Positions 1,274 through 60,798 of a DNA stretch of 64,000 nucleotides are shown in pieces. The position numbers and the translations under genes are program-made. Positions within the stretch are counted from its first letter, which is position 1, and every line of letters begins with the position of its first letter. Origin of the DNA: Amoebophrya sp. A120 (lineage: Eukaryota > Protista > Dinoflagellata); contig CAJINV010000014.1 of NCBI GenBank assembly GCA_905178155.1, forward strand, positions 964,116 to 1,028,115, given 5' to 3'. Under the pieces are notes generated by a model. It searched no databases. It worked only from the letters and a program-made list of their open reading frames with translations, and was not told the DNA's origin.

Positions 1274-3723
1274 CTAGTTCGCGTTTCCAGCCAACAAAGT
1301 GGAAGACACCTGTTTCTGGTCCTTTTCCATCTGAAAGTGAATCTCCGCGCCGCCAACGTGCCTCGCAAAGTCGCTGTCAAACGCGACGCAGTACAGACAA
1401 AACTCCTTCCCGTCTGGGTGCCCGCCTTTTTCCAGCCCCGTGCGCAACACCGCCGCGTGGGGCCCCTGGTCGATTGCCTTCGCGGTCAGACAGACGGCGA
1501 CCCGGCCGGCGTGCTTGCCGATCCAGTTTACCAACTTGTGTCTCACCTCGGTGACTTGCTTGTGCACTCGGCTGGCCGCGCGAACACATCTCTCGCAGCC
1601 CGTGGTAAACTCCACCTCCCCCAGGTACCGGCTGAAGTTGTGCACGAGGGCGTCGTAGAGCACAAACACTTTCGCCGCCCCGCAAACGGCGCGTCGCCAC
1701 GTGCCCCTATTTCCGTTCGCATCCAGCGCGACCGTTACGAGCCGCTGCATCGCGAGGCGGGCGCGCTCGGCCGTCTGCTCCTTCGTCCGCTGCTCCTTCA
1801 TCGCGTTCTTTCGGAACACGCGCTCGGGCGCGGGAATGGCCGGGGGTTCGATCACGAGCAGCGCGCCCTCCTGGTCTGCGGTGGACACGCCCGAAGCGAG
1901 ACCGGCGATGATGGGCCTTGTTCTGTCCTCGGCTTGTTCTTCCATACTCAGCGCGCCACCAACGAAGGGGCGCGCGATTCTTTCCAAAATGTCCGCCGGA
2001 CCCACGTCAAACCACCACGCAAGTGGGCATCAAAGGCAAACTGCGTCAATTGCGTCTACGTCGGTACTAGCAGTGCGGAATGCGTGGTCATACCGCTGTG
2101 TACTGTTGAAAAATCATATGGGCCGCCACAAAGGCTACTTGCAATGCAAACCAAAGCCGCGTCTTTCTCTTTGTTTGGTCAAGTATGCAAAAATTGTTTC
2201 TGCGCGATAAATTTCTTTCTCATCACGTAACGGTACCATTCACAAAAACGCACGAGCTGTAAGCGCCTCCTGTACCGTCGACCCAAACGCAATGCTTTTC
2301 CCGGGCACCATAGCTGGCGCTTGACACGAACGCCGCCAAGCGTTTGGCAGTCTTCCAGATCGCCCGCGTGCTCCTGCGAAATCCGCACGCGCGGGCCGAC
2401 TATGAATTGCAACTATGTCTGGGTCTGGGACTTTGCTAGACTTGTGATGCAGGTTTTCCATGACCCATGTGATCTGTTGTAATGGAGGACCTAGCATGAC
2501 AGATTCCGTGAGATCACTACCATGCCTACCCTGCATGAGAAAGTGCCTCTCAACTTGATCAAAAGTGGACAGCATTTGGTAATCATGCAACAGAGATTTC
2601 TCCATGATTCAGATCTAGCATGACAAGTTCCAACCTTGCCGACCCAGACATTTTTGCACTGCATACCGACGTTCAGGAACCCCGCCGGCGCCTCGTCGCA
2701 CCGCTGGCCCCAGGCCGCCTCGATTCTCTCGAACGCCCCGGGCCGGGCGTAGCTGCCGGCGGTGGCCTCCCGCAGCAGCCTCAGGACCTCGCCCTCCTTC
2801 GCCCGTTGCTGCGCTTCCAGCAGGCCCTGCCGGACCACGCCGGTCACCCGGCTGGCGGCACGGCGCAGCGCACTCGCCACGGCTAGCCAAAAGTCCCGGT
2901 CTCGGCTCAGGCCAAAACCCGGAGAAGCATGCTGGTGCTCCATCTCGTTCCCGAAAAAGCGACACAAGGATCGCTTCTGATCCAGGGGTAGGATTTTCGC
3001 TACCAGTTCTAGCATTCGCCTGTTCGACTCCGACGTTGCCCGCGCTATCAAAGCCCGGACCCGCTTCGGACAGAAGCTTAATAGCTTCGGGTCGCCGGAA
3101 GTGTCAATTATCGAAGTGGTATTTGGATTTGCAGCTCCCCCAACTGGGGGTGTAGAAGTACTCCCTGGCTTCTGCTGCTGTGAAATCGGAAACCTCATCA
3201 GGCAGACAAGGACGAAGGAAACAACTTCGCTCGGCGATTGCATCACCCCCGACAGGATGAAGTCCACAACAATCTCGGCCATTTGCTCCGTGAGCGATTG
3301 GTGTCGCGCTCTGTTCGCTTCCTCTTCCGGAGTCGTCTTCGTGGTGGGCGTCGCGCTGCCTGCTCGTGCTGCTCCTGCTGCTGGCATTTTTGGCATTAGT
3401 TCTTGTTCTTTTCTTGCCTGCTCCCGAATCGGCGGCGAGACTGTCGTGGGCAATTCCGGGGCAGGATCAGAAGAGGTCTGCACACGCCTTTTCTTCGATT
3501 TTTTCTTAATCTTCTTCGTTTTTTTCGTAAGTTTCTTCGTTTCCTTAATTTTCTTCGTTCTCTTAATTTTCTTCGCTTTATGCCCTTTCTTCGCTCTCGT
3601 CTTCACTTGCTGCGCACTGTTCTTCATTTTTCTTTTTACTTTTTTCTTTCGCTTATGGGAGCCGTCCTCGCCTTTTGCATTTTGGAAAACGCATTTCTGC
3701 GGATGTATTTCCCTCTTGCCCAT
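1274..3723 (-). CDS. hypothetical protein with Lys-rich N-terminus, multi-exon (one introner)
   Basis: ORF 2491..3771 (...GFLNVG) joins ORF 2179..2412 (PRVRISQEHAG...) in frame after removing introner 2401-2665 plus one TSD. ORF 1274..2005 is the probable last exon. Confidence 0.65.
2401..2665. mobile_element. introner family A (TIR TATxAATGCAAxxATGTCTGGGTC)
   Basis: Left end TATGAATTGCAACTATGTCTGGGTC, right end GACCCAGACATTTTTGCACTGCATA, TSD CCGAC/CCGAC. Removal of 270 nt restores the frame. Confidence 0.93.
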
Positions 3724-8300: not shown

Positions 8301-11300
8301 CTGCTCGCCTTCTGCAACGAACAGGTAGGTGTTTGTTGTCGTTGTTATTCCAGCGAGTTGTTCTAATGTGGATTTAATATTTTCTTGCAGGGATGAAGCA
8401 ACTGCAGCTCCCGCACCTTTGGAAGACCTTTTCGACGAACTTGCTGCTGCACCCGAGGCCCTGCTCTTCTTTGCGACAGAATTAGAGGTCTTCTTGCTGC
8501 CCAGCAGTTTTGGTTCGATGGACGTCGTGGCACCAAAAACATTGCTGTTACTCGTACTGCTGCTCCAGCCGCGTCGCTTGGCGAACGTGCGGCTCGCGGT
8601 GCTGGAAGCGGACCGGATCGAGAGCGGCCAAACAAAATCTGGACTGGACGCTGCTGGTACAGCAGGAGCAGCTCCAGTGTCATTCCTAAAACCTTCTATA
8701 TCACCAGCCGGTCCCGCCTCTGTGGTGGAGAAGAGAAATGTTGTGTTCTGCTCCGCGTAGTTCCTCTTGCCGGATATTGAACTGGATCTACTTCGTGTTT
8801 TCTTCTTTTTATTCGCGGTGGTCCCAGCTTGTACACCTGCAGTCTGTTTCTCGTCCGACAGTACTAGAGATGCTGCTGCTCTTGCCGTGGTCTCAGTATG
8901 TTGATCCAAAATCCCTGATTGCTCTTGCTCAGTAGCACCACCAGCGATAGAGCTACTCCTGTCCAGGTGAACTTCCATGTCAAGAAAGCTGACATTCTGC
9001 TTCAGAAACTCTTCCTCCGAGCTGTCTCTTTCACTTCGCGAGCTCTCGGGGAAAAACATGGCCACAGGTTGGTTCTTCTGGTCTCCGCGACCGGAGCCTA
9101 GGTTCCCGCTGGACATAGCTCCTGTGTTGTTTGCGTTCTGCAGGTCCTTCGCCATTTTGTTTACCGTGTTTTTGTTGTTTTTATCCGACACTACATCCGC
9201 GGCGCCGGCGTTTCTCTGGTTCGATAAAGCCTGCTCCGGCTTTGTCATGATGCTATCTTCCGTGCTGTTTCCGACCAACTGCGCGCCGACGAGGTATCAA
9301 ATGCAAACATGTCTGGGTCTGGAAGAATGCAGGAGTTTGTCATGCAGATTTTGCATGACTCATGATGGCTGTGATGCAAGCCGTAGCATCACAGACTCTG
9401 CGAGGCCGAGGACTTTCTGATGCCCATACCGCATGAGAAATACCCTTTTCGCGTAGCAAAAAACTGGACCTTTTTTGCTGTTCATGCAATACAGATTTTA
9501 TGTAGAGTCCAAAGGTAGCATCACAGGTTGCATCCTTCCAGACCCAGACATTTTTACAATCCATACGAGGGCGGACTGGTTGATTTCCCGTTCCGTTTCC
9601 TTCGGCAGCACCACGTTTTCCGGCACTTTGAAGACCGAGTTCGGATCGTCCTGCATCGCGCGGTACACCGGGGTCATGTCGAGTAGCTGCTGCTTCTCGC
9701 TGCTCCCCGCCGCCCCGCCCGCCACGGACGAGACCGACCCGCGGTACGCCAACCCCGCGGTTCGCGGGGGGAACTGGGCAAACTTCAGTTCGCCGTCCAG
9801 GTTCGTCTTCAAAAGCGGCATGGGCGGCTGCTCCAGCTTCAGTCCCTGCGGCGGGAATTTGGCGAGCTGCTGCTGCAGCTGGTGGGACAGCATCTGCAGG
9901 TTCGGCTGCACGGCCGTGAACTTCTCGCTCTGTACCTTCGTCAAGGGGCCCATGTCCACGGCCGGCAAGTCTGGGACGGGGGACAGGCCGATGCTGGCCG
10001 AGTGGCCCGCCAGCTCGGACAGCGGTCCGAGTTCGATCGCTTGGTTCAAGGTCAAGGGCTCGTTCACCTGGTCGCTCATGCGCTTCCCCCGCGACAGGCT
10101 CTCCCGGCGCTTGATCCGCTCGTCCGCGGCCACTTTCGGATCAAGCTCGAACGCCGGCGCCGTCACGAGGCTGGTGTAGCGGGCAGAAGAAGTTCCTTTG
10201 CTCGACTTCGAAGATACGACATGCGCCAACTCCACCTGCGTGCCGTCCTCCAGCGTGACGAACAGCTTTTTCTTGTTCCCGGGCGCGTTTTTCAACGCGT
10301 CGATCTCTTCCAGATAGTTGCTTTCCTCCTCTTTGTTCATGGAGATCGCGTTTATCCGGACCTCGTCCTTCTTCACGTCGACCCCGGGTTTTTTCCCCTT
10401 GGTCGCCGTGTCGTAAAAGCTGGGGCCCGCGCCCTTCGCGCCGCCCTCCTTCGCCTGCTGCTGCTGTTTCTTCTTCTCCTGCCACAGCTTTTCCTCCTTC
10501 TCCATGCGCAGGCGGTGCTCAATCTCCTCCCGCAGCTGCTGCTCCTCGGACAGCGCCTCCAGCTGCCCGGGCAGCCCGACGGGCAAAATTTTCGTGTCGG
10601 TTTTCACGCCCGTCGGCGCGGCTAGCGCGTATCCTATGTAAAAACGTCCCCACACCAGAGTTGTCATGCAAATGTGCAATGACAGGAACATTTGTAATGC
10701 GCATCTCCTTGAGAGGCATTTCCAGTCGTGTTTTCCAATTTGTAATGCTGCAAACAGCATGAGCAAATGGCTTTCTCATGTGGCTTTCCTTGCTACCCTG
10801 CACTACACTGCAGTTGGAAGCTTGTCATGCAGAACTCCCAAAAGTTGGAGATTTGTGTTGCAGATTTCCCATCTTGACTATGGTGTGGGGACGTTTTTAA
10901 ATACGATAACGCGTTCGCGCTCATCTTTTCCCATATTACAATGAAAAGCGCCCCCCACCCCCAAAGTTGCAAAAATTTGTGATGCGAAGTTTCCAAATGG
11001 AAACTTTTTGTCATGCATGAAAGGAGTATGAATCTTTCTGATGCAGATCGTAGTCGTGTTTCGCATCGCTTGCATGAAAAGCACCGCTCTTACTGGGATC
11101 TTTTGCAATACAAATTCTTGCTATTCACGATCGGAAATCTGTGATGCTGATACATGCAAGAGGGCGAATGTTTCATTTGGAAAGGTTTGCAATACAAATG
11201 CTTTCAAGTTCGGGGGTGGGGGCATTTTTCATTTTAATATCCCACACGTCCTTCTTTTCCACTTTCTGTTTCTCCGCCCGCAGGTCCAGCGCCTGCGACG

Positions 11301-13776
11301 TGCTCTCCGTGAAAAACTGGCCCTTCGAGGACTTCCGGTGCGGATCCGTCATCGGCCGGCTGTCCTTCGCGGCGTACAGGTCCGGCACGCCCGGTTTCAC
11401 CTCGGCGCCGCCCGGGTGCTCGTCGATGAACGGATCGTCGAGGTGGGCGTAGCCGTACTCGGGCGACTGCACGATTTTACCCAGCGTCCCGCCCTTGTCC
11501 TTGGCTTCGTACAGCGGGGCGACCTTCGGGTCGTAGACACCCGACTGCTTCAGATTGTTCAAATTCTTGTACTTGTCGATCGAAATCACCGGCGGAGACT
11601 TCGGACCGATCAACAGCGATTTTGGCGCGTTGTGTCAAGATGAAACATGGTGCCCCACCAACAACGGTGGACCGCGCAGTTTGTATCTATTTACAAAAAA
11701 AATTTTCACATGAGAAACTCTTACTTTTGACCTCTTGCATGAAAAGATAACGCTCTATACGCATTTTGTTTCAGAATATCTAAGCCAGTTGCGCAAGTTT
11801 TCAACAGCCCAGCTCTATCGCTTATACTGTTGCGCTGCGCAGCACAGACTTCGACTTCTCTGGCTTGAACATGTGTCATGCTGATACATGCAAGGCGGCA
11901 AATGTTCCCCTTGGGAAATTTTGCAATACAAACAGTTCCACATTTAGGGGTCGGGGGGGCACCACTTTTCACTTTGATACATTGAGCCCCTGGTCCATTA
12001 GCCGCTGGGCCTCCACCGTGTTGCCGTTGATTGACTGGAAGGCGGAGACCGGGCCCTCCTTCTCGTAGAAATTGTGCAACCGCATCTTCTCCTGCATGTT
12101 CAGGCTATCCTTCTGCGGCAGGGAATACGGGTTCTGCTTCTTGTGGTACATCAACTCATTGTGCAGCGTATCGACGTAGGCTTCCAGCTGCCGCTGCGAC
12201 GCGAGGACCGCAGCCACGTCGGGGAGGCCGTCGCCGGGCTGTTTTTCAGTTTGTTCTCCTAATAAAAACTCAGGATTCATATTTCGACGCTCTTGTCGTG
12301 TGCCATATTATGAATCTTCTCGAGCACTGGCCGGCTACAACTTATGCACCAAACGAAAACAGCAAAGAAGTCTACGACCATACACGCTTCCTCTACAACT
12401 ATGACTAAGAATTCCATATTACCCTTCCTTTCCCCACGCCGGCGCCGGGGGTGATGCTGAGGCAGATTTTGGGTACGAACACCTCTTCCGCGACGTGCAA
12501 GTAGTTTTTCTCGAAGGCCAAGTTTGCCGAGGACCCGAAGGGCGCGTCCGGGAGGTCCAGATTGAACCACTGCCGGTACAACCCCCGCATCTTCGCGACT
12601 TTCGCCATGGGAATGCGCAACTTCCCCACCGCCTTCACCAGCGAAGGGTCGGAATACGCCTGCTCCCGGGACTCGTACACCCGGATCGTCAACTCTGTTT
12701 CGAACGTCACGTCGACGGATAGCGTTTGGCTTCTCCCGATCACCCGCCGCTGGAACGCGGCGTTGGAGATCTCCGCGAAGAAATAGCGTTCCGTTTCAAA
12801 GTGGTGCACGTCCACGAACGTGATCAGAATCGGGACCGCCTCGGGGTCCGCGCTGGCCTGCGACGTGTCCTTCGCGCGGCTCGCCGGCGTCGGCTTCTTC
12901 TTCGGGATGGAAGCTTGCGGCGCAGCTCCCGCTCCAGGAGAACTGCCTGACGGGTTCTTCGTCGTCGAGGTAGCCATCGTGGTTGTTCCGGTTAGGCTGA
13001 CAGCAGGAACTGTATGTGGATTTGCGGGTGTTGTTACAGTTGTGTTTCCAGTAGAAGCTGCGACTTCTGCAGCGGCGTCGGTAGTAACGCGAGTAGGTAG
13101 TTCTGGTACAACCACGGGTACTGCACTGTCCACCTCTTCCACAACCTCTTCCTCCACTACGTCGTCAGCCCCAGCAGCTTCACCCTCCGCTTCGATAGTA
13201 GGTCTCGCCGGCACGAATGCTGCACTGGTAGTCAGCACTGGGTCTTCCTTAACAGCAGCGGACGCGGCTGTGTAGTTGTTTTCTACCAGACTGTTAGCCT
13301 TTTCTTGTGCTTCTGCTGCTGCTGCTGTTGCTGCGCTTGCGACCGGCGGAACTACGACGTTCTCTTCCACTGCGGCTACCAAATCTCGGGGGTTTAATAC
13401 CGGTGGAGCAAGTGCTTCCGTCGGTGCGCGTTCAACCACGCTTTGGGCAACGGCGGGCGCTCGGTGGTGCAACTCCGCGTTCAAACGACCAAAGATTATG
13501 TCCTTCGGGGCTATCAAATGCAAAAGTGTCTGGGTCTGGAAACTTGTGATGCGAGAAAGGGAATAGTGAACTCACTATAATGCGCTGCCAAGCATGACAA
13601 GTTTTTTCCATGGTTCTGAGTTGCGTACTCCGCATGAGAAACTGCGTTTTTGCATGACAGGGAGGCGGAGCTCTTCGCGGCCATGCAACACAGAGTTCAG
13701 AGTCATGCCAGGCAAGCATGACAAATCTCGCAATCTCCCAGACCCAGACATTTTTTCATTTGATAGGGGCCGCCAT
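5364..13776 (-). CDS. large (~2400 aa) low-complexity protein with a C2-like domain, split by 5 introners and at least one other intron
   Basis: ATG at 13776 gives MAAPKDIIFG. Rejoined junctions read LN|APKSLLIGPK, VW|EKMSAN|ALAAPTG and SAL|VGAQLVGNSTED. A C2-like beta-sandwich (ELTIRVYES...VGKLRIPM...YRQWFNL) lies at ~12450-12840. The link across ~12260-12430 is inferred and its splice sites are unresolved. Confidence 0.75.
9295..9565. mobile_element. introner family A
   Basis: TATCAAATGCAAACATGTCTGGGTCTGGA...TCCAGACCCAGACATTTTTACAATCCATA, TSD CGAGG/CGAGG. Confidence 0.93.
10630..10908. mobile_element. introner family D (TIR TATCxTATxTAAAAACGTCCCCACACCA)
   Basis: 28-bp TIR with 2 mismatches, TSD GCGCG/ACGCG. 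Confidence 0.9.
10934..11239. mobile_element. introner family C (TIR TATTAxAATGAAAAxxGCCCCC)
   Basis: TATTACAATGAAAAGCGCCCCCC...GGGGGCATTTTTCATTTTAATA, TSD TCCCA/TCCCA. Confidence 0.9.
11633..11979. mobile_element. introner family C (diverged)
   Basis: TGTCAAGATGAAACATGGTGCCCC...GGGGCACCACTTTTCACTTTGATA, TSD CGTTG/CATTG. The right half resembles element 10934-11239. Removal restores the frame. Confidence 0.8.
13512..13765. mobile_element. introner family A
   Basis: TIRs as in family A, TSD GGGGC/GGGGC. It lies 11 nt into the CDS. Confidence 0.93.
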
Positions 13777-14708
13777 GATACAACAACTTCTGTAGTCCTA
13801 CTGGAAACTTTAGTTCTGGTTATACTTCTTTCGAAGAGCATGGGGAAACATACACGAAGGGTCAATGAAAAATTTGGTGTAGCTCTCCCTCAATCGTGCG
13901 ATGTTGATAAAAAATCGCAAAAGCACGGGGTCGTCGGGGTACGATTCTAACAAAAAATGTTTTTCATGCTCATGTGGGGACAATGGTGGTAAGTACTTAA
14001 CTCTACATGTGGTCCTGTTTTTGGTCGGGAAATTCTAATTTCATTTCGAAAGGAGGATAGGAGGCAGAATTTATTTTCCTACGGTTAATATACACAAATG
14101 TGCACGTGAGTCGCACGTCGAACGAGACTGTCTGCTGGCGGGCGTACGAAGTAGTGACCGATTTTTTTTTCTACTTGACTAAAAGTCACTTTACCAACAA
14201 CTAACTTGCACGATAGATGTGGACGATGATATATGAACGTGAACGCGCGCGATCAGTGGTAAAACGACCGATCAAAAGAGCAACAAAGGAGGTGAAAGAA
14301 GAACGATACGTGCAAAGCGACGGCTTCCTCCGGACACAACTACAACGTCATGGCACGACGACGACATAACCGATACTTTGGGACGACGTAAACGTACGAC
14401 GAAACGAAGGCACGACATAGAATTTTCAATGCAATCGATATGAAACGGACGATAACGGACCGTCAGGCGGGATCAGGAACATTTTTGATTATCGCTATTC
14501 ACCCTCAGTGTGAATTTGACACTCCAGCTGCCTCTTCACGTAGTCAAAAAGGCTCGAAGTCTTATCGCTTTGTTTCAGCACCTGCTGTATTATGGCCTAA
14601 ACTGAATCTGTTCGGTTTGGTTCGGAGCATCACATCTCCAAGAACGAGGTTCTTACTGTATTTCCGTCTTTGCAGGAGCTGGTGGCAGTAGTTCTCTCAC
14701 CTCCACCC

Positions 14709-17700
14709 TCAAACGTCGTCCGGGTCGTTCCCCGGTGGCCCGCCTGTGTTCGATGTCGACCGTCGGTTCGCGGCGCTCTCGCTCCCGGACCCCGCCGCCC
14801 CACCACTACTTTCCACGTTCCCTATCGTCGTGGGCGGGGGGACGACCCCGGTCATGTCGATCACACTCGCGCTCTGCTGGTTGGTATTGGAGGCCGCGGA
14901 AAGACCACCGCCCGTCACGTCATTGTTGCCGCTGGAGGAAGACGCCGCGCCCCCCGCGCCCGAGCTCATCGGCTGGCTGCTGGTCAGGGTGAACTCCGTA
15001 TTGTTGGGTCCCTGCAAGTATCAAATGCAAAAATGTCTGGGTCTGGAAGGTTGGAACTTGTGATGCTAGCTCTGGACTCTAAAAACATCTGTATTGCATG
15101 ACCAGCAAGAGGAGTCTATTTTGTGCTACGCGGGGAGGGCATTTGTCATGCGGAGTAGGCAGCAGGAAGCCCTCTAAAAATCTGTGATGCTAGGTCGTGC
15201 ATTACAGACATCCTGGATCAAGCAAACTACGCATGACAAACCCGGCAACATTCCAGACCCAGACATTTTTGCATTTGATAGCAAGGGTGCGCGGGGCGGA
15301 AAATTGCTCAAAACCTCCTGCTCCAGCGTTTCGGCCTCGCCGAGCAGCCCGCGCATCCGCTGCGGATCGTATCGTAAGGAGAAATCCCCCCTCCCCATAC
15401 CAAAAAGGGGCACTACTGAAAATTTGCGGTGCTGATTTGTGACCACAAATCGTTCCTGTATTGCAAGAGGGCAAAGCCAGAGAATCAGCCGCGTTTCGCA
15501 GGCACTTTGTAACGCTGTATCGCTTACAGAGGATACGCCTGCCTTGCTAGGTGCCTACAGCAAAACGCCCCTACTCAGGCGCTGCATCCGCCTGCAGTCC
15601 TCTAGTGCTAGACAGATTGGATTTGTGTACACACATCCCCCATCACAGATCTCGGTTTTGATATGGGGAGGGGGGATTTTTCATTTTGATAGATCGTTCA
15701 CGTTCACCACGTGTGCCGTGCTTCCCTGCCCGAACGGCGCCTCCGGGGCCTGCGAGATCTGCACGGGACCCTGCGTTTTCGAGGATCTCGACCCCGCCGC
15801 CGTGCGACTCCCGGTCCGCGCCTGCGACGACGTGGCCGACTGGCCCAGGGCTCCGGACTGCGATAACTGGGACCGGGAGAGCTGCGAGCTGGCCCCGAGG
15901 GAGCTGGAAGACTGGTCGAGAAGCTGCAACTATACACTGCAAAATGTCCAAGTTGAAGTTGTAGTACGGAACTTATTTACAACGCGGTATAGCAACTTGC
16001 ATAAAGAGGAATTTTTCTTCAACGTCGACATGGTCGTACTATTCATCAACAAATATCGCTTGCTCATTTCCCAGTTCGAATGGGAAGATCTTTCTTGTCG
16101 CGCATCAAGAATGAATCTAGTTGTACAACACGTCGCTACAGTGGTAACAGCTTCGCCGAGGATTATTTGCAGTGCGTAGCGAGCGCTCGTTAGAATCTTC
16201 GTCCTGGTCCTGTATTCTTCGCTTTGGACTGCGACTGGTATCTTGGATAGCGCGAAGACTGCCGCCGGGGTAATTGTCTGTGGGAATAAATGAGTCTTAT
16301 GTATGATCAACACTTTCACTTGTGTATTGCTGCACTTGCAAACTGACAATGTTGTTGTACTGCCTTTCTTCTCAAACTCCTTGGTACAACGGCACGGCAA
16401 AAGTACTTCCGAAGGGTCAGGCATCTTCTCATATAGTCCCATGTAGTAAAGAACTAAACCCATTTTAGCGCCGAAAATTCAATCATATCACGTTTATTTC
16501 ACATGAACAATTCAGTTGTACCAATGGTCTGAATCGGCATGAGGCGGCCCCTGGTAACATTCTGGTAGAACTGCTCCTTGGCCATGATTTTCGCGTCGCG
16601 ATCGCCGTCCGGGAAATCCGGGCGGTAGTTAGCGGGCGGGGGCATCACCTTTTCGGACTCTTTGTTGGACGCGGCCACGTAGCGCAGACCCCTATCAACT
16701 GCAAAAATGTCTGGATCTGGAGGGGTCATGCTGTTTTTGCATGACGCAGAAGGTCTGGCATGGAAGCTCTAGCATCACAGGTTTCCAGAAGCTTCCGCAA
16801 TGCCGAATCCGCATCACAAATCCCCCAATTTGGTGACAGAAAGTAGACAGCTTTTGCTGCCTATGCATGGGAGATTTTTCTGTGTTCTGAAATGCGCATC
16901 ACAAGTTTGTACTCTTCCCGACCCAGACACTTTTGCAATTGATAACCGCCCAGGAGGAGCATCTTGGACTTCTGCTCAAACCAGGAGTCGAAGGTCAATC
17001 CCTCGTATTGTGAGGAAAAATCCCCCCTCCCCATATCCAAAACGAAATTTGTGTTGCTGTATTTGAGTACACAAATCGATTTGTATTGCTAGAAGGCCAA
17101 GAGACGCAGCTGCTCCCTCGTTCGCAGGCAATTTGTCATGCTGTTTTCCGTTTCCAGTTGCTTTCTGTCATGCTAAAGGCGCAAGGCTTTCCTACGCCAG
17201 CCAGCACTACAATCCGCATCTCTTCCCGACTAGCATGACAACGTGATTTGTGGTCACAAATCATGCTACACAAATCTCCCTTTCGGTATGGGGAGGGGGG
17301 ATTTTTCATTTTGATACCTCGGACAGCGTCTTCTGCAGCAGCGCCTCGTCGCGCGCGCGCTGCTCGGCCTCGGCCTGCTCGCGCCCGCGCTGCAGAAAAA
17401 ACTCGTCGATGGAAGCCAGCACGTTGTCAAACCGCTCCAGCCGCTCCTTTTCGGTTTTGTCCCGGAATTTGAGCAATCGCGACCGGAACCGCTTCACGAC
17501 AAAGAGCATTTTCCGCAACTTGTACGTGTCAAGACCCTCTTTAAAGTAGAAGGCGGTCTATGAGAGGGCGCGATTTTCTCCTCGAGCCATCGGCGTGTCA
17601 ACAAGAGGGGAGTTTGCAAGCTGCAGTAGAAAGCATAGCTGCATGACATCAAGTAGTCGTTATCTATGCATAGAACATTCATCCTGCAATGTTATCTCTG

Positions 17701-20700: not shown

Positions 20701-21446
20701 TTAACTAGTTTTGCGCTATTGTTTTTGCATTCACATTCCATGATACGAGGGTTTTTTTCCTTGTGATATGCTCTTCCTCGGGCGAAATGTCCTCGCCATC
20801 CGACTCCATGAGTTGCTGGGGTGTCCTACGAAAACTTGCTCGCACGGCAGGTAATTTGTCATGCAGAAATGATAAAATGTCGCATAGTTATACATGTAGT
20901 GTTTTTCATTTTCTACTCGAGCTCTACGTCCAGCATGACAGAATCATTTACGAACGCTTCATTTGCACGACAAATTCACGCTACGCTAGCACTCTTTTCT
21001 ACCGTACCCAGATTGCCGGAAAGAGAGCTGGTCTTGAGCTCCTCCTTTCGCGGCGTCGGCGGGTCGCTGTTGTCATCTTCGTCCGGCTATGGATTCAAAA
21101 CGTGTCTGGGCCGTTGGGTGACAGTAAAATGATGCTTGTTTTTACAACAAGTCTAGGGTCTAACACCAGACAAACATCTGTGCTGCAGGAGCCCTTCTTG
21201 AGTCTAATACAACTAACAACAAGTGGACGACGTAACTTTCTTTATGCAAAACTTCAAGTAGGTGGTCTTCAAAAATTTACCAATGTTGAAAATCAAAAGT
21301 TTGCCTGGCATGCTCGTTCCCAACGACCCCGCCGCGTTTCTTGCCGTCGATACCTCCTCCGGGAGCCCCTTCAGCTTCCGCGTCATCTTCGACGCCTGCG
21401 CCGCGGAGTCCTTCAGGGACGACTTCGTCGGCTTTTTGTCCGCCAT
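14709..21446 (-). CDS. multi-exon predicted membrane protein with 8 introners plus canonical introns
   Basis: Start MADKKPTK at 21446. Rejoined junctions: KRFQ|QKLRS, EYFV|RAGYDVV, HSA|RAPDD, KFL|ESDRK, LSE|GLTFDSW, LLGG|LRYVAAS, VND|PQRMR, APL|QGPNN. A hydrophobic two-TM exon lies at ~17795-17975. Some internal exons are not fully resolved. Confidence 0.7.
15019..15280. mobile_element. introner family A
   Basis: Perfect TIR TATCAAATGCAAAAATGTCTGGGTCTGGAA, TSD GCAAG/GCAAG. Confidence 0.95.
15370..15691. mobile_element. introner family B (TIR TATxxxxxGAAAAATCCCCCCTCCCCATA)
   Basis: TATCGTAAGGAGAAATCCCCCCTCCCCATA...TATGGGGAGGGGGGATTTTTCATTTTGATA, TSD GATCG/GATCG. Confidence 0.93.
16693..16944. 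mobile_element. introner family A
   Basis: Family A TIRs, TSD ACCCC/ACCGC. Confidence 0.9.
17006..17316. mobile_element. introner family B
   Basis: Family B TIRs, TSD CCTCG/CCTCG. The internal sequence is similar to 59551-59860. Confidence 0.93.
18704..18978. mobile_element. introner family A (diverged)
   Basis: TATCAACTGCACACATGCTTCGGTCTGGA...CCAGACCCAGACCTAGTTGCATTTGATA, TSD CCAGG/GCAGG. Confidence 0.85.
19023..19343. mobile_element. introner family B
   Basis: Family B TIRs, TSD GGGCG/GGGCG. It is an inverted close relative of 60439-60759 (both 321 bp). Confidence 0.93.
19803..20069. mobile_element. introner family A
   Basis: Family A TIRs, TSD GCACG/GCACG. Confidence 0.93.
20237..20488. 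mobile_element. introner family A
   Basis: Family A TIRs, TSD GTTGG/GCTGG. The internal sequence is similar to 13512-13765. Confidence 0.92.
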
Positions 21447-51598: not shown

Positions 51599-54335
51599 AT
51601 GCCAATGGGGCACGGACATCCACCAAACTGGTGCGCCCGCACACCGCGCCTTTTTCTCTTCTTGGCTGCCGGCGCCGCCGCCGCGGGTTTTTTCCGCAGT
51701 GCGCCGGCCGCGGCATCCTACGACCCTTTGCCGGCCCCGCCCACGATCCGCATCATTGGCGGCCCGCACGGTGGCGAGCTCTGCTACCCGCCGCCACCCG
51801 CGTGCCGGCCTAACGTCGGCGCCGCGGCGCTTTTCCCCCCGCCGCAGGCAAGCACCACCGCAAGGAACGTGGCACGCCCCCCGGAGCAGGGTAGAGGACG
51901 GAGCCGCGCCGCGCCGCCTGGCGCAGTGCTTGCTCTCGAGGCCGGAGTGGCATTGTTTCTGGTGGTCACGGTTTTCTACGTCCCCTGGAACGAATACGTC
52001 CTGGACCACCCCGCGGCACCCCCGTGGCCGCCGCCACCGGACGTCAATTCCTGTCCGGCCGCCTGCTCGCAATTTTCCGATGATGTCGAGAATGCCTATG
52101 ATTCGCGCTCCTGCCTGCTGCCCGAGCACCACCTTTTTGACGTCTCGCCGGAGGTGCAGAACGCGGCCTGCATGCGTCGCGGCGATCTTCGGATGCCACA
52201 GGAGAATACTCCCCGGGAGGAGCTCTATCAAAAAGAACCTTCCTGCTCCGACGCGGCGACGCTCTTCCGCGACAGCAGTAGCATGCCTGCCTCTGCGTTC
52301 GTCGCTCCGCCGGTGGTGCAGCAGGAGGACCACAGTATAGAAATCGAGCGGCGCGCCTCAGTATCTTGCAATCGCGACTTGCGAGCCGTCTGGAGCTGGG
52401 GCTTGCAGTTCACGCTCGGACGGGAATTACAGAAGAAGAAGCCGCGCGGGGGACAACAAGAAGGTGGTCCACTACCGTTGCAAGAAACGATCGCAGTTCC
52501 GGACCGGTTGCCCGCCGCTGCCGTACAAAAGGCCATTGTCGAGGCCTACACCATGACGCACACGCAGATGGGCGACGACGTGTGTTTTGGTGGTTTCAAC
52601 ACTGCGGAACGCCTGCACCTGCGCGGGACGGAAGTCGAACAGGAGAATATCGTCGCCAGGCTTCAGGGGACTGTATGGGAGAGGGAATAAACGTGCAGCG
52701 TCTGTAAAAGTTGCTATGAAATAACCGCCGGCAATATGCCGAGTTGGCTTCTTCTACCGGGCACCGCGCGGGTTAGAAGTCTGTCGCAGAAATACTTCGG
52801 CCTGCGTGATACCTTGGGTCCCCGTGCTGCCCATGTGAGCGCGTTGGGCCGCTCACTTGTTTAGCCATGCTGTTCTAGTATCAAACCGGCACGCGCATCT
52901 ACACACTACCTGTGCTACGCAGGACTTCAAACTTTGGCGCGACGCTTTTCCCCATTTTCATACCGCGACTGCGGACCTGTGCTCTACGAGGAAATCGGCC
53001 GTGCAATGACAAAACTTCCTGCCCCTCCGCCCGGAGTAGGAAGCGCAGACGCAGACGGCCAGCACGCCGGAAAGAAACGACCACGCGCCCAGAACCTCGG
53101 CGTCGTCATCTACACGCTCCGCGAGATGCTGCGCCAGCGCAACGCGGATGCGTCCGTTTTACTGCAGAAAAGCACCAAGCGCGCATGGGACAAGAACCTG
53201 CACTGGGTGGACGCACTGCTCGGAAGCAAGAACGGTTTCTGGCAAAGAGCGGAAGTGGTCTCGTCTGTTGTTGGCGCCGAAAGAACTACTGCTTCGACGC
53301 GAGGACCCTCTAGTACTTCTGGAGGTACAACAAGGTGGGGAAAAATATCGGCGCCGGGCAGCGCCGGTTTTTCTTCCACCGCAAAACGAAATTTCTACGT
53401 GCTGTGCCGTGGTATGTTTATCGGCGACGATGACCCGGTCTCCTACTTGCGCCGCAACTTCTTCGAGTGGCAGTCGGACACGAAACGAATCACGAGGGCG
53501 CTTTATCCGGATTAAAAATGTCCCCACACCAGAGTCAAGATGGAAAATCTGCTAGACAAATCCACCAGCTTCGGTCGTTTGGCATGATGGGATCCTGTTT
53601 AGCTAGTTCAGAAGCATCACAGATGTAGCATAGCATTCTGATTCCAGCATCACAAATTCCAAAACAATGTCGGTGCGGTTGTTTTAGCATCACAAATTCC
53701 AAAACACGAGTAGAAAACGCTTCTCGTAGGGCTCCGGCGCATGAGAAACTTTCTTAGCATGCAGAATTGCATGACAACTATGGGACCCACCTTCCCTGCG
53801 TGACAGCCATCTGCGGCCGTTTGCACAGGGGGAGGCAAAGTGTGTCGCACTTCTGTTTAGCATGACAACTATGGGACGGCGCGGGGACGTTTTTACACGG
53901 GATACGCTCTTCGCCCGAGACGTGCCGCGAGTGCAGTTCCAGCTGGAGGATTTTTGGTCGACGACGGTCTCGCGCACGGTGGCGGAAGGTGTATTCGCGC
54001 GCGCGGGTTTGGCGGATGTGCTGCGGCCGGGGCTGTCGGTCCTGTGGAAAATTCTGGTCCCAACGGGGGAGGATGCGGAATTTGTGCTGCAGTATCCGAA
54101 CGCTATCGGGGAAAATGATTTTTACCGGCCCGCCGCGATCCCGGACCGAATTGGGTCCACGGACAACGAGGGCGAAATTCTGTGGCCGGACCGCTCGGTA
54201 TCGACCGGGGAGGGGGGAAATTTTTTGTCATGCGATCAGGGATTGCGAATGTGGCCAGGCAGGACAAATAACGATATGCATAGATGTGGGAGGAGGTGTA
54301 CTTATCTCTGCGACCTAGTGTTTGTGGCGGTATGA
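51599..54335 (+). CDS. hypothetical protein, multi-exon (one introner), boundaries uncertain
   Basis: ORF 52934..53515 (ITRAL) joins 53862..54335 (FARDVPR) in frame after introner removal. The link to ORF 51599..52690 is inferred. Confidence 0.5.
53504..53904. mobile_element. introner family D
   Basis: TATCCGGATTAAAAATGTCCCCAC...GCGGGGACGTTTTTACACGGGATA, TSD CGCTT/CGCTC. Confidence 0.88.
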
Positions 54336-55799: not shown

Positions 55800-58700
55800 A
55801 TGTCGTCGGCCTCCGGGCAAGAGGGGTTCGCCCCGCCCTCCGCGAACGAGCGGGTATCAAATGCAAAAATGTCTGGGTCTGGAACAAAGCAACTTGTCAT
55901 GCTAAATCTGAATCATGTAAAAATCTGTGCTGCATGATTACCAAAAGCTGTCCACTATTCGAGAGGCAGTCTCTCATGCAGGATAGGCATGATAGAACTC
56001 TCGCAGAATCTGTCTTCATGCTATGCCCTACATACCAGACCTCATGGGTCATGGAAAACCTGCATGACAAGTCTGGCACTCTTCCAGACCCAGACATTTT
56101 TGCAGTTGATAGCGGCAGGGTGGGTTCGATTCTGCCGAAAACGCGAAAGACCTCGATCGAGACCAGCTTTTGAAAATTTTCAAGCACTTCGATTCCGATG
56201 GCTCAGGCTCGATCGATGTGGACGAGTTGCGAGACGCGATGCAGGCCCTGGGGATCAAAGTCACCATGGCCAGCGCAAAAAAGATCATGGCGACCATCGA
56301 TGCGGACGGAAACGGTATAAGAATGTGACTTTGATGTTCGAACGGTAGTTGCATGGCATCGCGCATGAATTGTTTGTAAGTACCTTTTTCATGCACGGCT
56401 GCGCTTGTATGTTCACAAAGATCTGAGTTTATATGGATGTCTGTACTTCCACTTACGAGACATCATTAAAAAAACTCGACAATAGGAACCGTTGAGTGGG
56501 AGGAGTTCGAAACGTTTTTATGCATTGCAAATCCATCTAGGTCTGGAACCTTGTCATGCTATAATGTGAGTTGCAAGCGCTAGCGCAAGATCAGCACACA
56601 GGTACGCATCAAAAAGTTTCTCGCTGCGATGCGGTGCCTACTCAGCATGAAAAATTGCAGTTTTGCACGACGAAGAAGTCTTCCTTTTTCGCAACATGCA
56701 TGACAGAATGGGCTGCTCGCTTTCTAGCCGAGCATTGCATAATTTTATTCCTAGACCAAGTGAAGATAGAATTTGCAATGGATATCTTTTCGAGAAGTGC
56801 AAAAACCCAGAGGAGATCCGATCCCTGTTATCCGCACAGAATGCCAAGTATCTGGACTACAAAATGATGGTCGAATATGAAAGCGTCAGGTTTGAAATCG
56901 ACAAAGTTGAAATGATTTGTCATGCATATAAATGGATACCAGTTGGAAGACCAATTTCCATGCGGCGCATGACAAATTTTCGGAGCATCGGAATCCAATT
57001 TGTCATGCTGTTTGGGCACAGGAGACTGCTTTTGTCATGCTCCTTTAGCAGCTCTATCCCAAACCCTAAAGAGGCTCACAATCTACCCCACTTGCCATCC
57101 CGGCAAGACAGGCACTTTATGCCTTGCATTTTATGCATGACAAATCATTTCAACTTTGACGATTTCAATCCTGACAGGTCCATATCGAAGGCGACCCCAA
57201 CTTCGGGAAACGATTTTTCGTCCCGTCAAGCAGAGACAAAAAATTCAAGTTTTCGGTACAGAAATTTAGATGCTTTTTGCATGCTTGTATGTTGATTGTC
57301 TCAAGTATAATATACTCTTCGAGCATGATGGCGTAGAAATTTTGTAAGCGCAAAGTAGGAACGGCATCAAGCGCTGAAGACGACGACCAGTATCTATAAT
57401 GATGTTGATGAAATTGTACCAAAAACAGGGCCACGAGGACAACGTTGAGGACGTAAAGTGGATAGACGCCAAGGGAAATTTTTTCGTGACAGGCAGTATC
57501 GTATCAGCTGCAAAAATGTCTGGGTCTGGAAGAGTGCCAGACTTGTCATGCAGTTTTTCCATGACCCATGAGGTCTGGCATGTAGGACATAGCATGACAG
57601 ATTCTGTGAGAGTTCTATCATACCTATCCTGCATAAGAAACTGCCTCTCGATTAGGTCAAAAGTGGACACTTTTTGGTGATCATGCAACACAGCTTTTTA
57701 CATGATTCAGACTTAGCATGACAAGTTGCTTTGTTCCAGACCCAGACACTTTTGCATTTGATATATCGACGGGTCCATCCGAGTGTGGGATTCAACAACC
57801 GGTACTACTACGGTGAATCTTCTTCGTTGGCATGCTGCAATACGAACTGTTGTCACCACGAAACACAGGGCAAGATTGAAATAGCGTTCTTGTTCCACTT
57901 CCTTTCTTCTCCATACCTGATTGAAAACTATGCAAGTGCGCTCCTACTGCCAATTATGACAGAAGGGATGGCACACCAAAAAAACAACAACAAAAAACAG
58001 GTAAGCTCTCGCATAAGCTGATAGAGGACATAGCGGGCGGGGTGTACTGCATGAATGTATTTAACGCGGGGGAAAGACTTCTGTGCGGGCTCGGCGGCAA
58101 GGAAGACAACATTGGACTCTTCGATATGACAAAACGAGGTAAATTCTAGCAAATTTCGCCGAGTTCGTCGATGAACACCGTGAAGAGTTTTTTTGTGTGA
58201 AGATGGATTTTTTGCAGGCGACAAGACAAATGAGTAATGTTGCGTAAAAAAATATTGTCCACTTCTACACGCGAAAAGAGGAAAAAAAGATCCGCTATCG
58301 TGACATACAGGCGCGGAGTCCAGGGTAATGTCGTACGCCGGACCGCCAGCCCCCGTGTACGCGGTGTGTGCCGAGAAGCTGAAGCAGCCCGCATACTTCC
58401 TCGCCGGGGCCAAAAATGGCCACATGGGGTGGTACGACCTCACGCGCAAAGAGCCCGTGATATCAATGACCAATTTCCACGAAGGTATGAAATATTGATT
58501 GATGCTGTCGTGGTCCGAGATGGAGAGGAAAAACACGCACAATTTTTGAAGATTGGTTATACACAGAAAGAAAAAAAAATTATGCCATCGATTCCAACTA
58601 CTGTTCACCTTTCTCCCAGGTGTGGTGTATTCAACGGACCTGAATAAGGAGGGCAACATGATGATTTCCACGTCGCAGGACGGGTTGCTGCAGATCGCGG

Positions 58701-60798
58701 ACTTCCGCGGCGGATTAGAGTGGAAAATCAACCACACCGTGGAGGAGGCCGCGGCATCGGGCATCTGCTTTAAAGCGCTCTTTCGTGGGGACCGGGAATT
58801 TGTGTCCTGTGGGGACGGTACTTTTGAATATACAACAACGTTGTTGAGGAAAAACTACTACGTACTTTTTACACGCAGTTCTTCTTCTGACATCATGAAA
58901 GATTACCACCGAACCAAAAACCCCAAAATAAAGATCGCCTTATTTGAGGGCGCCGCGACGATGAAAATAATGAACCAAGTACCTATCACAACTTTTCAGA
59001 TTACTGTGTGAAGAAGTGGGACTTGCGACAACTGAAGAAGGGGCCGGTCGAGAACTTCCTCGGTGTGACGTCACCAATACGAGAAATGTGCATGTCCCCG
59101 TGCGAGAAATACTTAGTCTCTGCGTCCGCGGACGGTTGCATCCGGGTGTGGGTCATCGACGAACGAGAATACATCGACGCAGACATCGAGCAGTGCGGCA
59201 GGACCATCCAAAACCTAGAGAAGAAGCGCGCGGCCTGGGACGCAAAACTGCAGGAGGGCGACGACGTGGAGGAAGAGGAGCTCCGATCTTGCGTAATTTT
59301 TAACGGATTTCCTTGTTGTTCCTTGTTCTTTTTTCAACTGAACATCTGATGCGCGTTTACATGTTTCTCATGCTGCAGGACTAGCTTCACACAAAAACAA
59401 TTTTCATCACGTCAACATATGTACTTATTCAAAACCTCAGATTATGGAGCTGGAAAAGGCCTACGTGCGGGGTATTTCCGTTTCACAAGCCGAAAACGAG
59501 CGGTACGCCATGAATTGCGTCCAGGCACGGATAGGGTTGGACGGCCACACTATCAAAAGGAAAAATCCACCCACTCCATATCGAAAACGAAATTTGTGTT
59601 GCTGTATTTGAGTACACAAATCGTTGGGTATTGCTAGAAGGCCAAGAGGCGCAGTTGCTCCCTCGTTTGGAGGCAATTTGTCATGCGATTTCCCGTTTCC
59701 ACTTGCTTCCTGTCATGCTGAAGACGCAAGGCGTCCCTGCGCCAGCCAGCACTACAGTCCGCATCCCTTCCCTTCTAGCATCACAAAGCTGATTTGTGGC
59801 CACAAATCTGCATCACAGATTTCCGTTTTGGTATGGGAGGGGGCATTTTTCATTGCAATACACACCCTCCCAGTCACGTCATGCTGCTGGCGAGACCACC
59901 CGACGGAACAGGGGCGCGTGCAGATCTTGAGTGGTATAGTAAATTTATCATTGTCGTGCGGGATTTAGATTTACAAGGCAGTAGAGTTTTGCGATGCGGA
60001 ATTGCATAACCAACAAACTACAAGCGTCGTGGTTCAATATGTCTGTGTGTACCATCATGTTGAAAACAACTTACAGGTTCCCAGGATCAGTCTGCGTTGC
60101 TGTTCGACATCAAGAAACCCAACCCAAACCATATGGCTTGCTCAGGTGTTACAATTTCAATTGTTATCATGAAAGCGGAAACTTGTCATGCAAAAGCTGC
60201 ACAACCTAGTAGCCTATGCCTAACCCCACACGAAAGCGCATGACAAGTTCGGGAGCTGCTCTGAACTGCACCTAGCCTGATCCGGCTAAGCATTTGTATT
60301 GCTGAGCGCGCAACAAGTCTCTCGAGGGTCATTGCGTTTATGCAAGACTACGCACTTCATCGCAACAGTTGAGATTCGAACCTCTGAGCAGGTTATAAAC
60401 CACTACATCAAGTGGGGCACTGGCGGCGGCGACGACGCTACCAAAGGGAAAAATCCCCCCTCCCCATATCGAAACGAAGTTTCTGATGCTGGATTTGCGT
60501 ATACAAATCAGGTCTGTCTTGCTGGAGAGGACTGCAGGCATATGCCAAGCCTGGGTCGAGAGGTTTTGACGTAGGGGACTAGCATGACAGACGTCGGCTC
60601 TGTAAGCCCAACAGCATCACAAACCGCCGGCATAATGTGGCGGAATCTCTGGCTTTGCCTTCTTGCAAGACAGACAGGATTTGTGACCTTAAATCTGCAT
60701 CACAAATTTTCAGACGAATGCGTTTTCAATATGGGGAGGGGGGATTTTTCCTCACAATAGACGCCGGCAGCCCCAGCGCCAAGCCAGGCTACGGCTAA
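55800..60798 (+). CDS. EF-hand plus WD40-repeat protein, multi-exon with 6 introners
   Basis: Start MSSASGQEG. EF-hands FKHFDSDGSGSIDVDEL and IDADGNG|TVEWEEF. WD40 repeats GHEDNVEDVKW...VTGSI|DGSIRVWD, LVSASADGCIRVW and GH|TLPVTSCCW. Stop TAA at 60796-60798. Confidence 0.85.
55855..56111. mobile_element. introner family A
   Basis: Family A TIRs, TSD GCGGG/GCGGC. It is an inverted close copy of 57502-57763. Confidence 0.93.
56519..56784. mobile_element. introner family A (degenerate)
   Basis: TATGCATTGCAAAT...ATTTGCAATGGATA, with a degenerate TSD GTTTT/TCTTT. Removing the element plus 5 nt gives ETF|FEKCKNPEE in frame. Confidence 0.78.
56876..57184. mobile_element. introner family E (long ~53-bp TIR)
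   Basis: TATGAAAGCGTCAGGTTTGAAATCGACAAAGTTGAAATGATTTGTCATGCATA and its inverted copy, TSD TCGAA/TCGAA. Confidence 0.92.
57502..57763. mobile_element. introner family A
   Basis: Family A TIRs, TSD TATCG/TATCG. It splits a WD40 repeat. Confidence 0.95.
59551..59860. mobile_element. introner family B
   Basis: Family B TIRs, TSD CACAC/CACAC. Confidence 0.9.
60439..60759. mobile_element. introner family B
   Basis: TACCAAAGGGAAAAATCCCCCCTCCCCATAT...ATATGGGGAGGGGGGATTTTTCCTCACAATA, TSD GACGC/GACGC. Confidence 0.92.

What the first reader, a model, noticed from the sequence alone, without database searches (positions are those of the whole stretch)
2401..60759. 23 MITE-like elements acting as non-canonical introns under one exact rule (TAT...ATA TIR plus 5-bp TSD)
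Seen: 23 elements in five TIR families, all inside coding exons and in both orientations. In each case, deleting the element plus exactly one 5-bp TSD copy restores the reading frame. The restored frames include conserved motifs: WD40 SI|DGSIRVWD and GH|T, and the phosphatase segment before GDNVY. Only 7 of 23 have GT at the TIR edge on the sense strand. Of those, I found an exact-length GT-AG solution only for 17006-17316. Known: TIR/direct-repeat introners with non-canonical splice sites have been described in Amoebophrya, but how they are removed is unresolved. Inference: removal is guided by the TIR hairpin and TSD rather than by GT-AG. Candidates are structure-guided splicing, a modified spliceosome, or DNA-level excision like ciliate IESs.
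Basis: partly seen in the sequence, partly recalled or inferred. Interest (0 to 1): 0.9.

Follow-up and report, generated by a model that had tools for sequence, protein, structure and literature searches.

The report
Hairpin introns cut at fixed offsets
Thirty small hairpin-shaped mobile elements interrupt genes of the marine parasite Amoebophrya A120 and are missing exactly from its RNA wherever RNA could be checked; they are a published intron class, but the cut appears to sit at one fixed offset that needs a U in second place and neither GT nor AG, which likely points to a loosened spliceosome.

Summary
Real, and already published as a class. The window is Amoebophrya sp. A120 DNA, and the elements are the introners of Farhat et al. 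2021. I count 30, not 23; 17 have an exact 5-bp duplication. RNA contigs skip element plus exactly 5 nt at 8 of 8 elements in the region laid for this, while DNA contigs keep 8 elements intact. New here, as far as my searches reach: mismatched duplications place the cut 4 nt into the upstream copy on the sense strand, giving N-TAT...ATA-NNNN, the register of the host's GTA donors. Among 307 strand-called copies from a second assembly, the +2 T never varies while its hairpin partner varies 11 times. G at +1 and AG at the end are at background. One site with only 2 of 5 duplicated bases left is still joined exactly, so the duplication is not the guide. Best reading: a loosened spliceosome reading U+2, with the hairpin fixing the 3' cut (0.55); a non-spliceosomal, structure-guided enzyme (0.35). 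DNA excision is disfavoured. No lariat or circle was observed.

The parts
2401..2665 (-). Introner, family 1 (TCTGGGTCTGG core); exact TSD; predicted intron ends GT-CG
   Evidence: frame only
9295..9565 (-). Introner, family 1; exact TSD; GT-TC; in the long gene ending at 5364
   Evidence: RNA piece starts at its right edge
10630..10908 (-). Introner, family 4; TSD mismatch at sense position 5; RNA has the downstream base (cut at or before 4)
   Evidence: table 5c
10934..11239 (-). Introner, family 3; exact TSD; AT-GG; a 20-nt exon separates it from 10630
   Evidence: table 5c
11633..11979 (-). Introner, family 3; sense 3' end ACA; mismatch at sense position 4; RNA has the upstream base (cut at or after 4, inferred from piece end 11627 and a 259-nt record gap)
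   Evidence: table 8
13512..13765 (-). Introner, family 1; exact TSD; near the start of the coding sequence
   Evidence: RNA piece ends at 13506
15019..15280 (-). Introner, family 1; perfect 24-nt TIR; exact TSD
   Evidence: RNA piece ends at 15013
15370..15691 (-). Introner, family 2 (CCCCCCTCCCC core); exact TSD
   Evidence: frame only
16693..16944 (-). Introner, family 1; one TSD mismatch
   Evidence: frame only
17006..17316 (-). Introner, family 2; exact TSD; the only GT-AG case, and only in the 4+1 register
   Evidence: frame only
17980..18155 (-). Introner, short; exact TSD
   Evidence: intact in DNA contig
18704..18978 (-). Introner, decayed family 1; one TSD mismatch
   Evidence: intact in DNA contig
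19023..19343 (-). Introner, family 2; exact TSD
   Evidence: frame only
19803..20069 (-). Introner, family 1; exact TSD
   Evidence: frame only
20237..20488 (-). Introner, family 1; one TSD mismatch
   Evidence: frame only
20574..20768 (-). Introner, short; two TSD mismatches
   Evidence: intact in DNA contig
25162..25372 (-). Introner in a DnaJ gene; mismatch at position 3; upstream base kept (cut at or after 3)
   Evidence: piece end 25156; public model P0007
25554..25846 (-). Introner in the DnaJ gene; only 2 of 5 duplicated bases identical; joined at element+5, cut at or after 4
   Evidence: retaining contig 25520-25876; P0007 matches only cuts 4-5
27061..27328 (-). Introner in the DnaJ gene; mismatch at sense position 1; upstream base kept
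27373..27662 (-). Introner, decayed family 1, DnaJ gene; one synonymous TSD mismatch
27829..27983 (-). Introner, shortest (155 nt), DnaJ gene; exact TSD; CT-AG
31050..31354 (-). Introner, family 3; exact TSD
   Evidence: frame only
53504..53904 (+). Introner, family 4, longest (401 nt); mismatch at position 5; RNA has the downstream base (cut at or before 4)
   Evidence: table 8, X7 record 8
55855..56111 (+). Introner, family 1; mismatch at position 5; RNA skips 262 nt, cut at or before 4
56519..56784 (+). Introner, decayed family 1; mismatches at positions 1 and 2; RNA skips 271 nt and keeps the upstream bases (cut at or after 2)
56876..57184 (+). Introner, separate family; exact TSD; RNA skips 314 nt
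57502..57763 (+). Introner, family 1, opposite orientation to 55855; RNA skips 267 nt inside a WD40 repeat
59551..59860 (+). Introner, family 2; RNA skips 315 nt
60132..60397 (+). Introner, single; RNA skips 271 nt; element-retaining RNA contig at depth 11 against 315
60439..60759 (+). Introner, family 2; starts TAC; RNA skips 326 nt
55800..60797 (+). Host gene (approximate coding span): 549-aa EF-hand plus WD40 protein with 7 introners and 8 GT-AG introns removed in one transcript

Best explanation
These are transposon-derived hairpin introns of Amoebophrya A120 that are missing exactly from the RNA, and they are likely cut out by a loosened spliceosome that reads a U at the second intron base while the hairpin would fix where the 3' cut falls. 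Steps. (1) Shown: each element has terminal inverted repeats and a duplication that is always 5 bp long. Inferred: a DDE integrase-type enzyme inserted them; none was found. (2) Shown: they are transcribed, and the mature RNA lacks element plus 5 nt. (3) Shown at seven informative sites and inferred for the rest: on the sense strand the cut leaves 4 nt of the upstream copy in the exon, so the intron reads N-TAT...ATA-NNNN in either element orientation. (4) Shown: +1, -2 and -1 are free, +2 U is fixed, its partner at -5 is not. (5) Inferred: the 5' site is read in the same register as the host's GTA donors; the 3' site is set by distance from the stem (4 nt beyond it) and not by AG; a helicase would have to open the last base pairs. 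Because the two 5-bp copies are alike, this cut restores the host codons, so a new insertion is nearly harmless.
For: RNA skips equal element+5 at 8 of 8; the pieces add up to the contig offset exactly (1763 = 1763). Register: at or before 4 at 10630, 53504, 55855; at or after 4 at 11633, 25554; at or after 3 at 25162; at or after 2 at 56519. All 8 canonical donors of the WD40 gene start GTA, the register of N-TA. Sense +2 T deviates 0 times and the -5 A 11 times in 307 copies (P 0.001); other A:T columns show no strand bias (54 against 48, Fisher P 0.0006). G at +1 is 74 of 214 (P 0.13) and AG 15 of 214 (P 0.71) against flank composition. All 18 predominant non-canonical site types in Table S4 of PMC7789003 have T second. 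That paper finds all but 6 of 89 spliceosomal proteins and the same repeat layout in 15% of canonical A120 introns. A spliceosome with changed selectivity is documented in Fritillaria (abstract of PMC13326754).
Against: No lariat, branch point or spliceosome dependence was observed. The U+2, A+3, U+4 bases are predicted paired (probability 0.81-0.85), which would hide a donor. The spliceosome normally pairs the first and last intron bases (recalled), and no +1/-1 preference is apparent (counts only, no test). U1 snRNA was not detected in A120. +3/+4 and -6/-7 are conserved on both arms alike, as a stem-reading enzyme would also need. The lower bound of 4 rests on two sites, both read indirectly from piece ends, plus a public gene model likely built from the same RNA. 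All RNA contigs come from one study. A coding-likelihood test of which copy is exonic was weak: 28 of 47 at positions 1-4 and 4 of 5 at position 5.
Confidence: 0.55

Rival explanations
1. A non-spliceosomal, structure-guided nuclease and ligase (or a separate RNP, as proposed for euglenid non-conventional introns) binds the terminal stem and cuts 1 nt before it and 4 nt after it, with a base-specific contact to the first U of the stem.
For: All 30 elements are predicted to form the stem (z -7.2 for 55855, -1.8 for 25554). Fixed offsets, no G and no AG. Euglena has a spacer-defined code, excised circles and few hybrid introns (PMC12501133 abstract and Discussion). U1 not detected in A120.
Against: The one fixed base matches the spliceosomal +2 U in the host's own donor register. 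No excess of G-U over A-C pairs on the sense strand, 191 against 179, so no sign of selection on RNA pairing as such. The terminal pair is broken on the 3' side in 11 of 307 copies.
Confidence: 0.35
2. The elements are excised from DNA in a transcribed life stage, like ciliate internal eliminated sequences.
For: Transposon-like ends with TA; exact loss of element plus one duplication copy. 832 joints were not shown, and contigs drop rare forms, so an excised DNA form is not excluded; only one DNA run was laid.
Against: DNA contigs span 8 elements intact at depth 24.6-26.5, the single-copy level. Element-retaining contigs occur in RNA runs (25520-25876, 60102-60426), and X3 has zero depth over silent 21674-24341. 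The cut lies at + positions 2-4 in + genes and at + position 1 in - genes, and the fixed base follows the sense strand.
Confidence: 0.03
3. The skips are reverse-transcriptase template switches across hairpins flanked by direct repeats (a recalled cDNA artefact), or removal is guided by the direct repeat itself.
For: Hairpin plus direct repeat is the substrate for such switches; all RNA evidence here is presumably cDNA-based.
Against: The joined form gives a 549-aa protein that aligns end to end with orthologs from other organisms and dominates the depth (315-509 against 5-11). 25554 is joined exactly with 2 of 5 repeat bases. The genomic +2 T constraint does not depend on cDNA.
Confidence: 0.03

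Closest known systems
Introner elements (IEs) / non-canonical introns of Amoebophrya sp. A120 (Farhat et al. 2021, PMC7789003; also Gozashti et al. 2025, PMC12130899)
   Same: Same strain; inverted repeats TAT + 7 nt + A run; 3-5 nt direct repeats at the borders; RNA-supported removal; many families; mechanism open.
   Different: The paper calls splice sites variable relative to the hairpin, the border unknown, and sees no clear dinucleotide signature. Here the duplication is 5 bp only, the cut has one sense-strand offset, and +2 U is fixed. [quoted passage not shown] I could not see its figures.
Euglenid non-conventional introns (Nomura et al. 2025, PMC12501133; review PMC11282704)
   Same: MITE-like origin, terminal pairing, cut sites set by spacer lengths, longer unpaired tail at the 3' end, unknown machinery.
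   Different: Euglena code is N3-CDG ... CHG-N5-6 then a purine; here N1-TAT ... ATA-N4, no purine rule, and a strand-specific fixed U.
Fritillaria borealis non-GT/AG introns (Soo et al. 2026, PMC13326754; review PMC11282704)
   Same: MITE-derived introns removed despite non-canonical ends, with a largely conserved spliceosome proposed.
   Different: Those have preferred ends (AG-AC, AG-AT) and U1 is kept; here the last two bases are free and U1 was not detected.
Retroviral-type integrase elements with 5-bp duplications (LTR elements; AtRE1 has TA...TA ends, bioRxiv 10.1101/137141; A120 family 38 of PMC12130899)
   Same: Fixed 5-bp duplication, TA...TA ends, occasional TG start.
   Different: These elements have inverted, not direct, terminal repeats and no coding region; no autonomous partner was found. 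A lead only.
Ciliate internal eliminated sequences (recalled)
   Same: Transposon-derived, precise removal from coding sequence.
   Different: Removed from DNA leaving one TA; here DNA keeps the elements and one 5-bp copy is left in RNA.

Membership tests
Amoebophrya A120 introner elements | Host is strain A120 | tested here: met
   Two exons 100% identical to A120 proteins P0001 and P0007
Amoebophrya A120 introner elements | Inverted repeat TAT + seven variable nt + at least three A | tested here: met
   TAT at 29 of 30 sense 5' arms; A at +12, +13, +14 in 26, 26, 29 of 30
Amoebophrya A120 introner elements | 3-5 nt direct repeat overlapping the border | tested here: met
   5 bp: 27 of 30 with at most one mismatch; 294 of 326 in the second assembly
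Amoebophrya A120 introner elements | Removed from RNA with non-canonical ends; repeated families | tested here: met
MITE (non-autonomous TIR DNA transposon) | Short, TIR, fixed-length TSD, many copies | tested here: met
   155-401 nt in the window; exact repeat at 5 bp in 245 of 326, at 4, 6, 7 bp in none; control 0.1%
MITE (non-autonomous TIR DNA transposon) | Cognate autonomous element or transposase | tested here: inconclusive
   None among five long TIR pairings in the window plus 617 kb of loci; no whole genome held
MITE (non-autonomous TIR DNA transposon) | Empty orthologous site in DNA | tested here: inconclusive
   No locus matched the window's flanks; orthologs are continuous at protein level only
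U2-type spliceosomal intron | GT at the start | tested here: not met
   10 of 30; 74 of 214, at background
U2-type spliceosomal intron | AG at the end | tested here: not met
   2 of 30; 15 of 214, at background
U2-type spliceosomal intron | U at +2 | tested here: met
   30 of 30; 307 of 307 against 296 of 307 for its partner
U2-type spliceosomal intron | Branch point, lariat, snRNP dependence | not testable with these tools
   A at -7 is conserved, and family-1 A at -12 has 0 against 6 deviations, not significant over 23 columns
U12-type (AT-AC) intron | AT-AC ends and minor snRNAs | tested here: not met
   0 of 30 AT-AC in register; U11, U12, U4atac, U6atac reported absent
Euglenid non-conventional intron | CDG at +4 to +6 pairing with CHG, 5-6 nt spacer, purine at exon start | tested here: not met
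   TAT at +2 to +4, 4-nt spacer; purine at exon start 15 of 30 and 133 of 214, near flank level
Euglenid non-conventional intron | Release as a full circle | not testable with these tools
   No reads of excised introns
Ciliate-type IES | Absent from the transcribed DNA | tested here: not met
   8 elements intact in DNA contigs, retained forms in RNA; one DNA run only

The most novel reading that the evidence does not exclude
Amoebophrya A120 splices tens of thousands of introns by a code of one base and a ruler: U at +2, then a 3' cut exactly 4 nt past the end of a hairpin, with no G at +1 and no AG. The machine is either a spliceosome that has dropped the first-base/last-base check or a splicing enzyme of a new kind, and it makes any 5-bp-duplicating TAT...ATA transposon a seamless intron in either orientation.
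Probability: 0.6. Interest if true: 0.8.

Novelty: already known. Interest (0 to 1): 0.55.

Why it matters
How these introns are removed has been open since 2021, partly because their borders were taken to be variable. A single register with one fixed base turns that into precise tests: where a branch or circle junction must lie, which spliceosomal contacts must have changed, and which point mutation must block splicing. It also explains how transposons can flood coding exons at little cost, and it gives a rule that would correct A120 gene models (two public models in this window are wrong near such sites).

Tried and rejected
No whole genome is held, so snRNAs, Prp8 and U2AF could not be examined. 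No RNA holder was on record as RNA; X3-X5 and X7 are taken as RNA because they skip GT-AG introns. The 2026 raw-read runs X9 and X10 laid only on a repeat end (91 and 3 reads) and gave nothing. The TIR pattern had no match in viral contigs. G-U wobble excess on the sense strand: none. Which TSD copy looks more coding: weak, not significant. Fewer mismatches at position 5 (5 of 52 in loci) vanished when the window's 4 were added. Search for an autonomous element: five long pairings, two were spans over several short elements, three had longest ORFs of 85-137 codons that were not searched further. Pfam found nothing in 14 ORFs; Rfam nothing in the window. A low-complexity DnaJ exon found no protein. 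The retroelement at 41-49 kb was considered as the mobiliser and rejected: it looks like a tyrosine-recombinase type with split direct repeats. Earlier notes by place and by sequence were empty.
Full report
What is there. A strict scan for TAT...ATA with an exact 5-bp flanking repeat gave 17 hits, 16 of them elements, against 0.64 per shuffle. Relaxed scans and the RNA joints raise the count to 30 elements of 155-401 nt between 2401 and 60759. 17 duplications are exact, 10 have one mismatch, 2 have two and 1 has three; 28 of 30 have TAT...ATA. 22 lie in minus-strand genes and 8 in plus-strand genes. None was found between 31354 and 53504, a stretch largely of other repeats plus one long open frame. 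Four families have several copies; three of them clearly occur in both orientations relative to the gene, the fourth weakly. All 30 joins have an open frame. Junction windows score as coding in 26 of 30 cases against 48% of all windows (P 1e-5; the model was trained partly on these genes, so the figure is optimistic).

Where it comes from. Two exons are 100% identical to proteins of Amoebophrya sp. A120. Farhat et al. 2021 (PMC7789003) describe A120 introners with inverted repeats that start TAT, then seven variable bases and an A run, with 3-5 nt direct repeats, about 29,850 copies, and an unknown splicing mechanism. These are the same elements.

They leave at the RNA level. Four runs taken as RNA (two samples, one study) were laid on 52801-61400. 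All 8 elements there are skipped by element plus 5 nt: seven in the joint table and 53504 from adjacent pieces of one contig. One contig removes 7 introners and 8 GT-AG introns; the pieces add up to its offset exactly, and give a 549-aa EF-hand/WD40 protein that aligns end to end with orthologs from A25 and other organisms. On 9001-29000, one RNA contig brackets 10630, 10934 and 11633 and shows one edge of 9295 and 13512; others show one edge of 15019 and 25162. So 11 of 30 are bracketed by RNA, 5 more are joined in the public DnaJ model, and 14 rest on frame or one edge. The DNA run keeps 8 elements intact in contigs at single-copy depth, and RNA runs hold low-depth contigs that retain an element. 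That table was swamped by repeats (832 joints not shown), so a rare excised DNA form is not excluded.

The cut has one register. Where the two 5-bp copies differ, RNA shows which copy each base came from. Counting bases of the upstream (sense) copy left in the exon: at most 4 at 10630, 53504 and 55855; at least 2 at 56519; at least 3 at 25162; at least 4 at 11633 and 25554. The first four are read directly. 11633 and 25162 are read from piece ends under the tool's leftmost-joint convention. 25554 is read from the ends of its retaining contig (25520-25876), a 30-nt overlap rule that reproduces the known junction at 60132 (60102-60426), and from P0007, which matches only cuts 4-5. All seven fit one value, 4, so the intron reads N-TAT...ATA-NNNN. 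In plus-strand coordinates the cut differs between plus and minus genes, so it follows transcription; no family offered informative sites in both orientations, so a dependence on element orientation is unlikely (4 of 4 informative sites) but not excluded. The only GT-AG case, 17006, falls in this register, and the 8 canonical donors of the WD40 gene all start GTA. 25554 keeps 2 of 5 duplicated bases, so the duplication does not guide the cut; it only makes the cut seamless.

A larger sample. The family-1 end pattern fetched 148 loci (617 kb), all from one other assembly whose relation to A120 I did not determine; it may not be independent. A scan on inverted repeats alone found 326 elements and none in 312 kb of shuffles; in the window it finds 22 of the 30 plus one false hit. 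245 have an exact 5-bp repeat, 294 at most one mismatch; exact 4-, 6- and 7-bp repeats never occur. I dropped 19 with three or more mismatches, leaving 307. A codon-model strand caller that ignores the element was right for 27 of 30 window sites; 214 of 307 passed a confidence filter. Independent frame calls on both flanks imply +5 (mod 3) in 179 of 229, and 109 of 116 at the strictest margin. Orientation relative to the gene is even (36:30, 14:13, 7:7, 9:10; 6:3 and 3:0 in small sets). G at +1 (74 of 214) and AG at the end (15 of 214) are at background, and G-U pairs are not enriched over A-C (191 against 179). One asymmetry stands out: the sense 5' T never deviates in 307 copies while its partner, the last A, deviates 11 times (P 0.001; 8 against 0 at the strictest strand filter). 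Other A:T columns show no such bias. The inner four end bases deviate 2-3 times each on both arms. Table S4 of Farhat et al. lists 18 predominant non-canonical site types, all with T second, though the text reports no clear signature.

Mechanism. A fixed U in the register of the host's GU donors, with free +1, -2 and -1, is what a spliceosome would leave if it kept its +2 contact and dropped the others; the stem, predicted in 30 of 30, would bring the ends together and measure the 3' site. Against this, the donor bases are predicted paired, U1 was not detected, and nothing here shows a lariat. A structure-guided enzyme of the euglenid kind with one base contact fits nearly as well. I put these at 0.55 and 0.35. 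DNA excision and cDNA template switching are each near 0.03. The mobiliser is unknown; the 5-bp duplication and TA ends resemble retroviral-type integrase products (and family 38), a lead only.

Novelty and reading. The class is known. I did not find the fixed register, the strand-specific U or the independence from the duplication in five searches or in what I read. PMC7789003: abstract, passages, sections 10, 12 and 16, supplement parts 2 and 3 of 5; its figures (Fig. 3, S19-S25) were not visible and may show part of this. PMC12130899: passages and 21 of 58 A120 rows of one table, which list mixed site types and repeat lengths of 2-5; two supplement files were not searched. PMC11282704: passages and section 6. 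PMC12501133: abstract and Discussion. PMC13326754: abstract and passages. PMC11453091, PMC12005148, PMC9860276 and bioRxiv 10.1101/137141: passages. Roy et al. 2023 (Curr Biol) was not read. Statements on ciliate IESs, template switching and first/last-base pairing in the spliceosome are recalled.

Noticed in passing
window 41003-48916: Likely DIRS/PAT-type retroelement: split direct repeats (41003-41174 = 47771-47942; 47627-47778 = 48765-48916) around broken minus-strand frames. The 42197-43348 frame scores 0.95 to a cluster with RVT_1 in 43% of members; RNase H-like and tyrosine-recombinase-like motifs are my recalled reading. Pfam found nothing.
   Followed up: partly
window 36554-40978: Two arrays of a degenerate 31-bp unit (about 36554-36885 and 40491-40978) enclose 21-bp and 249-bp repeats and an N gap at 37205-37304; possibly a large subterminally repeated element or satellite.
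   Followed up: no
window 60132-60397; protein P0001: The public A120 model of the WD40 gene reads into this introner and has a wrong C-terminus; the RNA join matches the orthologs.
   Followed up: yes
window 24994-25882; protein P0007: The public DnaJ model appears frameshifted from about 25882 on; another frame gives a glycine/serine-rich tail more usual for DnaJ proteins (family comparison recalled).
   Followed up: partly
window 10909-10933, 27329-27372, 18979-19022, 60398-60438: Micro-exons of 20-40 nt net lie between adjacent introners; two are RNA-confirmed.
   Followed up: partly
window 49082-49381 and 50148-50447: A 300-bp repeat at 100% identity, 1066 bp apart.
   Followed up: no
loci L001-L148, family 1: The sense-strand A at -12 shows 0 deviations against 6 for its partner in 149 copies; a possible branch-point lead, not significant over 23 columns.
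   Followed up: partly
window canonical introns 56315-60076: The host's canonical introns are often A-rich before the AG, with no clear pyrimidine tract in most of the 8 seen.
   Followed up: no
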